Below are positions 4,765 through 61,393 of a stretch of DNA of 64,000 bases, piece by piece; the stretch's first letter is position 1, and every line of letters starts with the position of its first letter. A program made the position numbers and the translations under genes. Source of the DNA: Eledone cirrhosa (lineage: Eukaryota); NCBI GenBank assembly GCA_964016885.1, contig OZ024761.1:19158001-19222000 (forward strand), read 5' to 3'. The notes beneath the pieces were generated by a model. It searched no databases. It saw only the letters and a program-made list of their open reading frames with translations, and was not told where the DNA came from.

Positions 4765-5017
4765 AGTGTAGGTAGTAGGGTGAAATACTGGTGTTGATAC
4801 CAAATCAAGCACTCTATGCACAGGCAGAGTGTATATAGTAGAAAATACGAGGAAGTTTCGTTTACATATAAAACATAGTTATTGCGTTTTGAACGTTTCG
4901 CAGAAGATTGGCTCACCTATGGGTCACCTTGAGCCAATCCTCTGCGAAACACGCGTAGCAAGTCGATACGCAATAAATATTTGTTTATATGTAAACGAAA
5001 CTTCCTTGTTTTACTAT
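4765..5017 (-). mobile_element. Penelope-like pLTR fold-back fragment (asymmetric inverted repeat) in (TA)n
   Basis: Imperfect arms ~4840-4915 and 4930-5016; extra tail 4765-4835 on the left arm only; same family at 48365-48500. Confidence 0.6.
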
Positions 5018-5076
5018 TATATATATATATATATATATATATATATATATATATATATATATATATATATATATAT

Positions 5077-5480
5077 ATATAATATAAAACGAAAAATCAG
5101 TGATGCATCTGGATTCAGTTTATTGTGTGTTACAATTGTTTCGCCGGCAGATAGCTCGAGACAGGATCATTGTATGGATCTGTCTGATTCTAGATCTGCA
5201 GGTTCTTCGGACACATGCAATACTTTCGGAACAAATTTTCTCACTCCGAAAGTATTGCATCTGTCCGAAGAACCTGCAGATCTAGAATCAGACAGACCCA
5301 TACAATGATCGCGTCCCGAGCTATCTGCCGGCGAAACAATTGTAACACGCAATAAACTGAATCCAGATGCATCACTGATTTTTCGTTTTATATTATATCA
5401 CACTCTGCTCTGTAAGAACATAGAGTGCTCAACTGGCATACCGCCTATGGAAGCAGCATAGCTACCATTAAACACACATA
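5077..5480 (+). mobile_element. Penelope-like pLTR fold-back element with hammerhead and tail
   Basis: ~150 bp arms 5077-5230 and 5245-5398 with a 14 bp spacer; the right arm continues as an ~80 bp tail; TA repeats on both sides. Confidence 0.7.
5262..5347 (+). ncRNA. Variant type I hammerhead ribozyme (CCGAAGA core, long stem II)
   Basis: tgt-CCGAAGA-[cctgcagat...atctgccgg]-GAAA-caattg-TA-aca then aataaa; mirror copy on the left arm. Confidence 0.6.
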
Positions 5481-5524
5481 TATATACATATATATATTTT
5501 GATATATCTCATATGAAATGATAC

Positions 5525-5662
5525 AGCCAATTTTCCACACAATACAATTAGTTAGCACCCCGAACGTTTAATTAGGAATATACTCAGGTATTTCCTAATG
5601 TTTGTTGAGTGAGCTGGAATTTGGTCGGAGTATCGCTTTTAGCTTTCTCCGATTATGCATTT
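5525..5662 (+). repeat. Dispersed repeat (putative Penelope-like 3' end); second copy at 11605-11745
   Basis: Two diverged copies, each ending in (TA)n; contains a tactc...gagtg hairpin. Confidence 0.5.
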
Positions 5663-7592
5663 ATATATATATATATATATATATATATATATATATATAT
5701 ATATATATATATATATTACCTCAATGACGTAGAATATTCTAAATACATTATATTATGTCAGATATCTTATATCCTAGATATGCTATGTCATAAATATATT
5801 ATGTCATAGATATCTTTCCCTATATACACCATGTCCTGAATATATGACTCCCTTAAACATAATATGCCCTAGATACACCAAAAAAGCTAATAGGCCTATC
5901 TCAACCACCACCACAACCACTACCAGCACCACTACACCCACCACTACCTCCACCACTCACCCACCACTACCTCCACCACTGTATATTTGTCTATCTTCTA
6001 TAACAACTCTACACTATCCAAACCATTGTGTAACAGATAACTTTACCAAACACCACGTGACATCTCATGGTTTCTTATCTCTTGCTGTTGTTGATGTTGG
6101 TGTTGTTGCTGTTGTTGTTTTTCGTTTCCCTTTGGCTTTTTACTATTTCTGTGACTTGGGGAGTCAAATTAAACGACAACTGGAAAATATATACTTGCAA
6201 ATACACAAACAGACACACATATATGTATGTATATATAAGTTTATATATGTATGCATGTATGTGTGTATATATATATATATGTATGCATGTGTGTGTGTAT
6301 ATATATATATGTATGCATGTATATATATATGTATGTATGCATGTATATATATATATATATATATATATATATATATATGCATGTATATATATATATATGC
6401 ATGTATATATATATATGCATGTATATATATATATGTATGTATATATATATATGTATGTATATATATATATGCATATATGTATATATATATATGCATATAT
6501 ATATATATATATATGCATATATATATATATATATATTATATATATATATATGCATGTATATATATATATATACACATATATATAAAATACATACATACAT
6601 ACATATATACATACATACATACATTACATACACATTATCTTGCCTTTTATTTTAAGAAAATCTAAAATTACCCAATAATAATAATAATAATAGCAACAAA
6701 TGAAAAGAAATCTTTTGTGAAAACAAATTTCCAGCTTAAACCAACTTTCTAATATCGATGGTGTTTTTTACACAAACAAACCCTCATGGAGGGTGGGATT
6801 TAGTTCAACACTTCCGCCCCATTGCCATCTTGTCTTGTTTTATCTTGGAGAAACAAGCATTAGATCTGCTGCTGTTGGGGTGATGATGGTGGTGTGCTGT
6901 AGTTTTAAAACATAGGGTGGGTTGTTTTAAAGGGGTAGGTTGTTTTAAAGGGGTGGGTTGTTTTGTTGTTTGTTGTTTTTTTTTTTTTTTACTTACGGGT
7001 GGGCAAGTGGGTTAACAGAAACACTTACCACCTGAAACAATACTTTAGGAGTTCAAATAGGAGAGAAAGATAATAATTTATATGTGTGTACGTGTATGTG
7101 TACGTGTGTGTGTGTGTGTGTGTGTGTGTGTGTACATGTAGAAAAGGTTGAGTCCCTGTTTGGTGGGAAAATGACGGGAGGTGGGGGGGGGGGGGGGGAG
7201 AAAACTTTAGTCTCGTGTCAGCCGACCCTCGTTGAATCTCATTTTGAAGAGATATTTGATCCGGTTATCTGAGTTCAAATCCTGCTGAGCTCAATTTCGC
7301 TTTTCTCTTTTTTAGGGGTCGATAAAACATAATACAAGTCCAGGCAAGAGCCTTGTTTCAAAGGCACCATAAGCAATTTATGCTCCTTTCAGAATCAACA
7401 AATGTTGGTTTGTCCCCCTCACATTTTTAAGGCAAACGAGGCCCCCTGAGTCCAGGGCAGGATTTGCACTGGGAGATTATATTCGATAAAATAGAGTACC
7501 AGTAATGCACTGGAGTTAATTTAATCGACTTTCCCCTCCCCCAAAATTGTTGGCCTTGTGCCTAAATCAGCAACCATTATTACATGCGTATT

Positions 7593-7813
7593 ATGGCAAT
7601 GGATTGGCAGTATCGGTAGAGCGTCAGACACCATGCTTTGCAGCATTGAGTTATCGCCCTTTACGTTCTGAGTTCAAATCCGCCGAGGTTAACTTCCCCT
7701 TTTATCCTTACGGAGTCGATAAAATAAAGTACCAGTGACATATTAGGTTGATTTAATCGATTTTCCCCTTCTCCCAAATTGCTGGCCTTGTGCCAAAAGT
7801 AGAGACAATTATT
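7593..7813 (+). mobile_element. tRNA-derived SINE (octopus-type family)
   Basis: A-box-like tggcagtatcggtaga, B-box-like gagttcaaatcc, shared body gtcgataaaataaagtaccagt...ggccttgtgccaaaa; more than 10 copies in window. Confidence 0.8.
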
Positions 7814-8043
7814 ACACTTGCCTCGATTTTTTTTTTTTTTTTTTTAAGAGAAGTTAGTTGATAGGTTTCGTTAGAATTTTGAAGGTAAAATTTGTTTTTA
7901 CTCTGAGGTCTTTTTTTTATGATTTGAACAAATATGGCTTCCAAAACCGTCGTAAATTACTCGTTTTCTGTTATTCCTTCACCCGAGAACTCCCTAAACT
8001 CGTCTCGGGGACGGATGCAATATTATATCATATTATATTATAT

Positions 8044-59088: not shown

Positions 59089-59370
59089 ATAAATAAGTAA
59101 ATTAAATTAAATAAAATAAGATAAATAAATACATACACAAGCACATAAACACACACTAGTCACCCAGCAGACAACACTATACACACTAGTCACACATCAC
59201 ACATCACACATAACACTATACACACACGCAAACGCATGCGCAAAGAAGACAAAATAAAATAAGATAAACAAACAAGCAAATAAATAAATAAATATATAGA
59301 CAGACTGAACAAAAAAAAAAAAAAAATGGCGTAGACATACAACACAACAGGAGGAACAATGAATATAACA

Positions 59371-59410
59371 CCACTGACGATGTTGCAGATGTGCAACGAA
59401 AGATTTATGT
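59371..59410 (+). ncRNA. Minimal hammerhead motif in the Penelope-like 3' pLTR (mirror copy 54209-54248 -)
   Basis: cca-CTGACGA-t-gttgca-gatg-tgcaac-GAAA-gatt-TA-tg; perfect stem II, weak stem I. Confidence 0.6.
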
Positions 59411-59514
59411 AAACTATATATATATGTGTTTGTCTATATTGTATCTGTATTATTTTTGACCGCCGGTCAGTCAATGGCAACATTGAGGACCGAGTAAGTT
59501 AGATCGCAGATATA

Positions 59515-59526
59515 TATATATAAAAG
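59515..59526 (+). promoter_or_regulatory. Possible TATA box of the pLTR promoter
   Basis: tatataaaag about 30 nt upstream of cagtgagt; motif only. Confidence 0.3.
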
Positions 59527-60631
59527 ACAGCGAGAAGCGAAAACCAACCAAACAGTGAGTGTGTTCTGTTATTAATTCTGGCAATATTACGCAAATATGA
59601 CCCTCCCCAAATATAACAATATCTGTTTCGACACACGATTTCATATAAAAAACCTCGCAAAACTATATATATATATATATATATATAACAAAGAAATAGC
59701 CGTCGAAACAGCTTGAGGTCTGCCGTCGGGGTCCTGAGCATTTTCATATATATATATCAATGATATTATACTCCAGAAAATCTGTAGAGTGCTTTGAATC
59801 TGTTATAAATAAATTTGTTGAAAAACCAACAAATTAAATATCTCTTTGCTTATATATATATATATATATATATATATATATATATATATATATATAATAT
59901 ATAGACATGTATATATACACGGACACACACATATACATATATGGGTGCATGTGTTTGTATGTATTTATGTATATTATATGTACATATATGTGTGTCTGTG
60001 CATGTATACATATATACAAATATCATATATATATATATATATATATATATTATATATTATATATATATATATATATATTATATATATATATATATATATA
60101 TATATATTATATATTATATATATATATATACACCCTTGCAAGCAAGGAAAAGCGGACGTAAAATGATGATGATGATATATACACACATACACATATATAT
60201 ACATACACACACACACATATATATATATATACATACATGTGTTTGTGTATATATACACATATATACATATATACACATGTACATGTGTGTATGTATTTGT
60301 TAGGAAGATGAATTAAGATTAGATATTCACACACACCTACATACATACAGACACAAATATATATACACATTTATATATATATATATATATATATATATAT
60401 ATGTGTCTGTCTCCTGATAACGGTAGTAATTAGATATTTGATATCTGCTGCTGTAGTGAAACACCAGGGAAGGACTTTAGGGATTTCTGGAAGGGTTTTT
60501 TGAAAACATCCTTAACAACTCACTACATGGGCCTCCTGCTGAGTCTCCAGATTTCGACTGTTTATTTACTTTATGACATGTGTGTAGGTGTATGATGTGT
60601 GGATGTGTATATATATATATATATATATATA

Positions 60632-60816
60632 TATATAATGTTTGATATAGAAATGGCTTCTACAGAACTACAACTGTTTCATTTGAAGGAAATCATTAGG
60701 AAAGCCTGATAATTTCCTTCGAATGAGATAGTTCTAGTCCTGTAGAAGCCATTTCTATATTACACATTATATACTTTACTTCCTGTGGTTACCCCCGATT
60801 GAACCTGGCATACTCA
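60632..60816 (+). mobile_element. Asymmetric fold-back element (gaaacagttctagtcctgtag family)
   Basis: Imperfect ~70 bp arms around 60702; tail ctgtggttacccccgattgaacc matches 53300-53330. Confidence 0.6.
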
Positions 60817-61004
60817 TATATATATGTACAGTTGTCCCCCGTATTTGCGGGGTGGTTACATTTGTAGAGCAGCCATGAAGATATATATGTACATCCAATA
60901 TAAATATCAACTAGCTTAAGTTACTACCTATTTCTAGTATCGAAATCCCTATTCAATTGGCCATCTTCTTTAGAAACACTTCACTATATATATATATATA
61001 TATA

Positions 61005-61393
61005 TATATCACAGAAAAAAAGAGAGAATCAGCGATGAATGGAATTTATTGGACATATTACAATCGTTTCTCTGGCGACCAGCTCGAGGCACGATCGATG
61101 TGATGATCGAACCTGAATCTGAAAATCGCAAGGTCCTCAGATACGTCTTGATTCTATGAAGCAGATTTTCCTGAGGGCCTTGCGATTTTCAGAGTCAGGT
61201 TCGATCATCACATCGATCGTGCCTCGAGCTGGTTGCCCAAGAAACGATTGTAATATGTCCAATAAATGCCATTTGTTGCAACACTGATTCTCTCTTTTTT
61301 TCTGTGATATTATAATACTCTGCTCTGTGAGAGCATCGAGTGCTCATACAGCCTACCACATACGGAGGACGCTTTAAGCATCCAACACCAGTT
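61005..61393 (+). mobile_element. Asymmetric fold-back element with hammerhead 3' half and tail
   Basis: Arms ~61006-61140 and 61171-61310, 30 bp spacer; GAAA-cgattg-TA-atatgtcc-aataaa; tail similar to 5401-5430. Confidence 0.7.

What the first reader, a model, noticed from the sequence alone, without database searches (positions are those of the whole stretch)
4765..61393. A recurring insertion grammar: (TA)n - short arm - turn - long arm plus tail - (TA)n, in at least five unrelated families
Seen at 4765-5017, 5077-5480, 22558-22770, 32702-32910, 42165-42432, 46505-46735, 48365-48500, 53298-53465, 60632-60816 and 61005-61393. In each, the short arm stops at an internal AT-rich patch and merges into (TA)n. 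The long arm runs on for about 45-100 bp. Turn points and spacers differ between copies of a family, so these are not fixed-TIR MITEs. Inference: miniature products of the mechanism that built the 5.6 kb palindrome, i.e. a microsatellite-targeted palindrome generator.
Basis: partly seen in the sequence, partly recalled or inferred. Interest (0 to 1): 0.8.

Follow-up and report, generated by a model that had tools for sequence, protein, structure and literature searches.

The report
Penelope retrotransposon ends in TA repeats
These lopsided palindromes inside TA repeats are very likely the truncated ends of Penelope-like retrotransposons, a known insertion pattern, and their one-sided tails share a small hairpin-like motif that likely marks where reverse transcription starts.

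Summary
The grammar is real: 10 of 10 cited sites are short arm, turn, long arm plus a 45-85 nt tail, and 18 of 20 ends touch (TA)n. It is the published insertion pattern of Penelope-like elements (PLEs): 5' truncation, an inverted 5' copy, a tail at one end, (TA)n bias. The 5.6 kb palindrome is a 5'-truncated RT/GIY-YIG PLE (Nematis-type linker; best hit an Octopus vulgaris protein) with a ~41 nt tail. The small families are not unrelated: their tails share a motif (RCTCY..GAGYRCT) starting just after the short-arm end, and several carry hammerhead ribozymes upstream. The motif stands at the termini of published Hydra-clade PLE consensus sequences, so the small elements likely come from Hydra-type PLEs, not from the giant's family. 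No small element was linked to an ORF. Likely mechanism: both strands of self-complementary (TA)n are nicked and prime two cDNAs from two fixed RNA start sites, joined at the turn. Two details I did not find in print: the shared tail motif, and 13 of 14 two-armed insertions carrying exactly one tail. New members of a known kind; modest interest.

The parts
53997..56789 (-). Inverted short arm of the giant PLE insertion; stops ~41 nt before the element's 3' end and runs into (TA)n
   Evidence: 2793 aligned nt, 99.86% identical to the direct arm; TA run 29 nt at left
56790..59663 (+). Direct arm of the giant: 43 nt spacer, 5'-truncated RT/GIY-YIG ORF (56791-59085), 3' UTR, tail 59623-59663, then (TA)24
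   Evidence: Homology to relatives begins at residue 59 = 56791, the turn; RVT_1 E 1.5e-4, below Pfam's cut-off; aligns over 750 aa with P0104, whose matching C-terminal part scores GIY-YIG above cut-off
59374..59415 (+). Hammerhead-like core in the giant's 3' UTR; stem I interrupted by a short TA run
   Evidence: Regex core hit; fold shows stem II only; not passed by the strict scan
4765..5017 (-). Family D: short arm, turn, long arm, 74 nt tail with hairpin motif at 4830
5087..5478 (+). Family B: 151 nt arms, 85 nt tail, motif at 5402
22560..22759 (+). Family A: 60 nt arms, 78 nt tail, motif at 22688; hammerhead 3' half
   Evidence: half core read by eye
31883..31964 (.). Family A, not cited: two short arms, no tail, both ends at the proximal site
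32704..32908 (-). Family A: 65 nt arms, 80 nt tail, motif at 32776
42172..42432 (+). Family E: 87 nt identical arms, 84 nt tail, motif at 42351
42460..42559 (+). Family A, not cited: inverted short arm joined straight to the far end of the tail; the two parts do not overlap
45797..45958 (-). Sixth family (F), not cited: 34 nt arms, tail with the G-C form of the motif at 45855
46508..46733 (+). Family C: degenerate hammerhead core, 81 nt tail with decayed motif; no (TA)n at left
48367..48500 (+). Family D: 31 nt arms, 66 nt tail, motif at 48436; no (TA)n at right
53299..53463 (-). Family C: 45 nt arms, 72 nt tail, motif at 53357
60638..60815 (+). Family C: 67 nt arms reaching the hammerhead core; 45 nt tail without the motif
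61010..61393 (+). Family B: 148 nt arms, 83 nt tail, motif at 61317; the spacer likely belongs to the inverted arm
   Evidence: joints from 61172
51670..51890 (+). Family E, one arm: complete type I hammerhead at 51703 followed by the tail motif at 51807 and (TA)17
33303..33505 (+). Family E, one arm: complete hammerhead at 33404, ends at the AT patch without tail
31640..31810 (+). One-armed piece between (TA)17 and (TA)72: complete hammerhead at 31715, no tail
32055..32360 (-). Piece with the tail motif at 32159 ending in (TA)90; no inverted arm found
59686..59850 (+). Family A piece ending at the proximal site, (TA)12, then an E-like tail-only piece with the motif at 59770
8687..8742 (-). 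Second, short copy of the giant's family, ending at the same proximal site in (TA)n
   Evidence: 86% over 57 nt; sequence

Best explanation
The sites are likely 5'-truncated insertions of Penelope-like retrotransposons into (TA)n, the small ones likely from Hydra-type families and the 5.6 kb one from a Nematis-like family whose RT/GIY-YIG ORF is in the sequence. Shown: layout, fixed short-arm ends, variable turns, hammerheads, shared tail motif, the ORF. Inferred, from the in vitro work on another PLE (PMC11167929): the GIY-YIG domain nicks both strands of the self-complementary (TA)n; each nick primes a cDNA on the element's RNA, one from a proximal start site (the AT patch just 5' of the tail motif) and one from a distal site 45-65 nt 3' of it; both cDNAs stop early and are joined at their ends, often over a few shared bases, which makes the turn. 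The tail is the stretch between the two start sites and is likely the 5' start of the next unit in a tandem transcript. More tentative: the two starts are used in a coupled way by a protein dimer bound at the tail hairpin of one RNA. Whether the small families are ends of autonomous copies or short non-autonomous derivatives is open.
For: Published PLE pattern: inverted 5'-truncated copy, tail often at one end only, (TA)n bias. Two RT start sites, tail between them, both strands nicked and extended, dimer predicted. Giant has this layout with an RT/GIY-YIG ORF. 4 complete type I hammerheads in the window against 0.04 expected; 2 of them are family E and 1 more is TA-flanked; family C has a core, and 165 contigs of run X1 and 6 of X4 go on 5' of 60705 with letters that would complete its stem I. 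Short arms end 1-8 nt before the motif in 8 of 8 cited sites that keep it. Loose ends behind 60762 run into TA in 8 contigs of X4 and 5 of X5; X1 has 253 there. Motif at termini of Hydra consensus sequences, read by eye in 6 of 6 held: clear in Hydra-2_Amil (3'), Hydra-2_Ajap (3'), Hydra-1_Ajap (5' start), looser in Hydra-1_Crog (both ends); window copy 45855 has the same G-C form. Either arm can reach further 5' (giant: direct; 31883 and 42460: inverted), so the arms were primed apart. 13 of 14 two-armed insertions have one tail, 1 none, 0 two (P 0.0009 against free choice at best odds).
Against: No small element is joined to an ORF: no Hydra protein motif and no second PLE ORF in the window, and laid contigs were too short to reach one. 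The one octopus Hydra consensus (Hydra-1_Obim) shows no clear motif, Hydra-1_Amil only a weak one, and a similar stretch lies inside one Naiad 3' region. Hairpin support is weak: 2 pairs with a change on both sides, 36 of 500 shuffles as high; 82% of cells paired against 80% shuffled; tail folding z -2.3 to +0.3 in 10 tails. Families A, B and D show only hammerhead half cores. Tails (66-85 nt) are twice the published 30-40 nt. The X1 loose-end consensus behind 60762 agrees only 0.49 and mixes tail-bearing contigs, because the window copy has a deletion there. In vitro, start sites did not differ between strands.
Confidence: 0.75

Rival explanations
1. The small elements are PLE insertions but come from, or are moved by, another clade (the giant's Nematis-like family, Naiad or Neptune).
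For: Same layout and target as the giant; octopus Naiads also prefer (TA)n and some have half-core hammerheads; one motif-like stretch in a Naiad 3' region.
Against: No BLAST match between cited elements and the giant; the giant's tail is ~41 nt and lacks the motif; the octopus Naiad 3' ends shown lack it; complete hammerheads are said to be absent from Naiads.
Confidence: 0.12
2. One cDNA folds back on itself and copies itself; the copy is then captured at the AT patch by the other (TA)n end.
For: Arms nearly identical in young copies (giant 99.86%, 42165 100%); family A ends cluster at a natural hairpin loop; turns in family C share 2-5 bases (by eye).
Against: A self-copy cannot hold sequence that the long arm lacks, yet at 42460 the arms do not overlap, at 31883 the inverted arm is the longer and neither has a tail, and run X1 has joints from 61172 to 61293 and 61367 of the same kind.
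Confidence: 0.06
3. TA-targeting DNA elements (MITEs, Helentron-like) with subterminal inverted repeats and a 3' hairpin.
For: Short, non-coding, palindromic, TA-flanked, conserved small hairpin near one end (resemblance recalled, not tested against a library).
Against: Turn and arm length vary within families; one-armed copies exist; hammerheads; ends are not fixed mirror images.
Confidence: 0.04
4. Assembly or read fold-back artefacts.
For: The giant's arms are almost identical; I could not lay reads over its turn.
Against: The giant's mirror stops at the known tail offset with different flanks on each side and a second copy ends at the same site; small arms have diverged up to 17%; public runs hold the families and their joints.
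Confidence: 0.02

Closest known systems
Hydra clade of PLEs (Craig et al. 2021, PMC8557442; section 11, passages and supplement parts 1, 2, 52, 53 read)
   Same: (TA)n target, type I hammerhead tens of bases before an AT patch, same terminal hairpin-like motif in 3 of 6 consensus sequences clearly and 1 loosely; present in octopus (Hydra-1_Obim).
   Different: No ORF here to test the protein motifs; window families do not match Hydra-1_Obim by eye; tails 66-85 nt; motif mostly in the A-U form, G-C form in 1 of 12 window copies; three families show only half cores.
Nematis/Neptune PLEs (PMC8557442, passages and Fig. S2 text)
   Same: For the giant: RT then C-terminal GIY-YIG, DKSG, CX4CxxC linker with short spacing as in the Nematis rows of Fig. 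S2, CCHH, ~41 nt tail, inverted 5' copy.
   Different: About 125 residues between RT motifs 3 and 4, shared with its homologues; clade not tested by a tree against named references.
Poseidon PAc of Anolis (Frangieh et al. 2024, PMC11167929; parts 1-2 of 4 read)
   Same: Two RT start sites with the tail between, AT-rich target, both strands extended, template not cut by the ribozyme (window copies run 5' past the cut site).
   Different: Other clade; there RT starts inside an AC-rich stem-loop and start sites do not differ by strand; here the starts flank the motif and look coupled.
Non-LTR retrozymes (bioRxiv 10.64898/2026.07.22.740005; part 1 of 5 read, supplements closed)
   Same: Short non-coding type I hammerhead units tied to PLE pLTRs.
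   Different: Defined by tandem arrays with a hammerhead per unit; the window copies are single or inverted pairs.
L1 twin priming (recalled, not read)
   Same: Two target-primed cDNAs joined over short shared sequence give a 5' inversion.
   Different: In L1 the two parts usually do not overlap and the internal site is not fixed; here they overlap and the site is fixed.

Membership tests
Penelope-like elements (giant) | RT plus GIY-YIG in one ORF | tested here: met
   RVT_1 weak; own C-terminus gives no Pfam hit but aligns with P0104's GIY-YIG region; 311 homologues
Penelope-like elements (giant) | 5' truncation, inverted 5' copy, 30-40 nt tail at one end | tested here: met
   Relatives have ~280-320 more N-terminal residues; tail ~41 nt
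Penelope-like elements (giant) | Hammerhead near the 3' end | tested here: inconclusive
   Core and stem II present, stem I interrupted
Penelope-like elements (small families) | RT plus GIY-YIG ORF in cis | not testable with these tools
   No host assembly held; no ORF in the pieces; contigs short
Penelope-like elements (small families) | Variable 5' truncation, inverted copy, tail at one end | tested here: met
   10 of 10 cited; tails longer than the published 30-40 nt
Penelope-like elements (small families) | Type I hammerhead | tested here: met
   Complete in family E and at 31715, core in C; half cores only in A, B, D; none seen in F
Hydra clade | DKT motif, CxCX5C linker, no CCHH | not testable with these tools
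   No ORF for the small families; the giant does not meet it (DKSG, CX4CxxC, CCHH)
Hydra clade | Insertion into (TA)n | tested here: met
   26 of 28 ends of 14 two-armed insertions; not specific, Naiads share it
Hydra clade | Terminal motif as in published consensus sequences (my criterion, not the authors') | tested here: inconclusive
   By eye: clear in 3 of 6, loose in 1, weak in 1, not seen in the octopus one
Nematis clade (giant) | Short CX2-5CxxC linker before a CCHH GIY-YIG | tested here: met
   Motifs compared by eye with Fig. S2 rows
Nematis clade (giant) | Position in the RT tree | not tested
   Named reference proteins were not available to the tools
MITE / TIR DNA transposon | Fixed symmetric terminal inverted repeats | tested here: not met
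   Arm length and turn vary, ends differ, one-armed copies
Non-LTR retrozyme | Tandem array with a hammerhead in each unit | tested here: not met
   None of the 4 complete hammerheads has a tandem partner

The most novel reading that the evidence does not exclude
Hydra-clade PLEs carry a hairpin, kept from cnidarians to echinoderms, crustaceans and octopus, at the junction of tandem units; the RT/EN dimer binds it on one RNA and starts one cDNA on each side, one per target strand, so that nearly every two-armed insertion is a palindrome with exactly one tail. That would give a ~90 nt cis element for a cell-free test of how PLE inversions form.
Probability: 0.3. Interest if true: 0.55.

Novelty: new member of a known kind. 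Interest (0 to 1): 0.3.

Why it matters
The layout itself is known. What remains of use: a short motif that may let one recognise and count Hydra-type PLE ends without their ORF (22 PLE-type pieces, about 9.6 kb of this 64 kb window with the giant, 3.9 kb without), and a count (one tail per palindrome) that bears on an open step of PLE transposition, how tandem and inverted structures form, which PMC8557442 names as unresolved.

Tried and rejected
No host genome is held, so no genome-wide count. Rfam at E<=1: the 150 rows shown of 337 were hairpin families below their thresholds, no hammerhead family among them. Metagenome scan with a family C 22-mer: 1 match, an unrelated phage-like contig, taken as chance. 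Viral contigs with the giant's protein: 9 pattern matches, none confirmed. Run search: no RNA holder listed. Reads were laid on 60630-61400 only (4 of 24 runs), so the giant's turn was not checked. Profile search of six frames found only the giant's two arms. Tail folding and covariation gave weak support. Within-insertion arm identity exceeds between-insertion identity in B (0.91-0.96 against 0.73-0.74) and mostly in A, not clearly in C or D; this cannot tell one RNA from two RNAs of one source or later gene conversion. I first took 38134-38959 for a TIR MITE and dropped that: it is two head-to-head copies of a ~575 bp repeat. I first called the giant Neptune-like; the linker spacing fits Nematis better. 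Relaxed motif scan gave 19 rows: 15 in these elements (12 distinct tails, 2 second starts within the same tails, 1 reverse reading), 1 further overlap counted among them, and hits at 24481, 63472 and 10893 outside them, taken as chance. Earlier findings of the scan: none returned. Literature searches with no hit; 'hairpin' and 'stem-loop' absent from the main text of PMC8557442. [quoted passage not shown]
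Full report
Setting. The window is AT-rich animal DNA dense in simple repeats. No whole genome is held. The best protein hit of the large element is an Octopus vulgaris protein at 69% identity, so the host is likely an octopus; that is an inference.

Observation. All 10 cited sites have the layout described: paired arms of 31-151 nt at 83-100% identity and tails of 45-85 nt. 18 of 20 ends touch a perfect TA run of 10 nt or more, against about 6% of background positions near such runs; 46505 (left) and 48365 (right) do not. 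A survey blind to tails listed 24 local inverted repeats and recovered 9 of the 10, the giant and a new case at 45797-45958. BLAST sorts the ten into five families, whose arms are unrelated.

The giant. 53997-59663 is (TA)29, an inverted arm, a turn at 56789/56790, a direct arm, a ~41 nt tail and (TA)24. The arms are 99.86% identical over 2793 nt. The ORF matches relatives from residue 59, exactly the turn, so the 43 nt spacer is natural direct-arm sequence and the copy lacks about 300 N-terminal residues. It has RT motifs (RVT_1 E 1.5e-4, below cut-off) and a C-terminal region that aligns with the GIY-YIG domain of P0104; its own C-terminus gave no Pfam hit. DKSG, a short CX4CxxC linker and CCHH fit the Nematis rows of Fig. 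S2 of PMC8557442 by eye; no tree was built. A second short copy at 8687-8742 ends at the same internal site.

The small families are related at their tails. All 9 window matches to YACTCY N5-18 GARTRC fall in tails, about 1 expected; the motif was taken from these elements, so this count is partly circular. It starts 1-8 nt after the short-arm end in 8 of 8 cited copies that keep it. A relaxed scan added tails at 51807, 32159 and 45855, the last with G-C in place of A-U, plus three hits outside the elements. Support for base pairing is weak: 2 pairs with changes on both sides, 36 of 500 shuffles as high; folding z-scores -2.3 to +0.3. A strict scan found 4 complete type I hammerheads against 0.04 expected: 33404 and 51703 belong to family E, 31715 sits between two TA runs, 18024 is a separate element. 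Family C has a core, and contigs of runs X1 (165) and X4 (6) continue 5' of 60705 with letters that would close stem I. Families A, B and D show only the 3' half by eye.

Link to a clade. I read the six Hydra consensus sequences in the supplement of PMC8557442. Hydra-2_Amil and Hydra-2_Ajap end with hammerhead, AT patch, GCTCT..GAGCACT and 20-25 further bases; Hydra-1_Ajap ends at the AT patch and begins with the same motif; Hydra-1_Crog has looser forms at both ends; Hydra-1_Amil is weak; Hydra-1_Obim shows none. In the 584 kb file TAGAGCACT occurs twice, both at Hydra termini, TTGAGCACT twice, once at a Hydra terminus; the A-U forms searched (11 hits) were not at Hydra termini, and one lies in a motif-like stretch inside a Naiad 3' region. 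So the tail is likely the 5' start of the next tandem unit, and the small families are likely Hydra-type.

Mechanism. PMC8557442 describes 5' truncation, an adjacent inverted copy, a 30-40 bp tail often at one end only and (TA)n bias (passages); PMC8969392 repeats this (passages); PMC4209133 notes pairs of hammerheads 100-700 bp apart on opposite strands (passages). PMC11167929 shows in vitro that a PLE protein nicks and extends both strands at AT-rich DNA and starts at two internal RNA sites, the tail lying between them. Applied here (inferred): (TA)n offers the same primer on both strands; one cDNA starts at the AT patch, the other at the tail end; both stop early and are joined. The window supports separate priming: the direct arm reaches further 5' in the giant, the inverted arm at 31883; at 42460 the two do not overlap; run X1 has joints of that kind in family B and several turn positions. 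Loose ends behind 60762 run into TA in X4 (8 contigs) and X5 (5); the 253 of X1 are mixed. One-armed pieces use either site. Coupling by a dimer on one RNA is the simplest reading but is untested, and the in vitro paper saw no strand difference in start sites.

Verdict. The grammar is the known PLE insertion pattern, here from at least two clades. The shared tail motif and the one-tail count were not found in the searches made, which miss subscription papers, Repbase and bioRxiv supplements. New members of a known kind, interest 0.3.

Noticed in passing
window:38134-38959; also 21520-22099 and 2114-2449: Two head-to-head copies of a ~575 bp TA-flanked repeat (96% to a full copy at 21520-22099) whose 3' end reads as a short Cys-rich peptide; looks like an internally deleted RTE-type LINE (label recalled). 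It mimics a TIR element.
   Followed up: partly
window:44036-44470: Symmetric inverted repeat (84 bp unique arms, 95%) that seems to extend through inner microsatellites and outer TA/ATAC arrays; no tail, no motif; origin unexplained.
   Followed up: no
window:31250-32940: Cluster of five or six insertions of different families separated by TA runs, suggesting repeated use of one (TA)n array; 31250-31610 has a long-looped version of the tail motif.
   Followed up: partly
window:17900-18030 (- strand): Complete type I hammerhead at 18024 followed by ~110 nt and (CA)n; likely the end of another PLE family.
   Followed up: no
window:40071-41264 (+): Single-exon ORF for a rhodopsin-family GPCR (7tm_1 E 1.8e-25).
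   Followed up: partly
window:50973-51398 (-): 142-codon frame that reads like the C-terminal end of a LINE ORF (label recalled).
   Followed up: no
window:8045-8230, 10386-10560, 10778-10919, 31400-31510: Several copies of a SINE-like repeat, two of them in opposite orientation.
   Followed up: no
window:8901-8948, 31883-31964, 32704-32908, 42460-42559, 59686-59750: Family A 5' ends cluster within about 20 nt around the loop of a natural hairpin (likely hammerhead stem II); two inverted arms stop at the same base. RT stalling or a short non-autonomous template.
   Followed up: partly
   Followed up: no
window:57420-57800: About 125 residues between RT motifs 3 and 4 in the giant and its homologues, long for a C-terminal-EN PLE as described in PMC8557442.
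   Followed up: no
window:27220-28253, 12610-13230, 18649-19018: Tandem arrays with periods of 145, 94/81 and about 95-200 nt.
   Followed up: no
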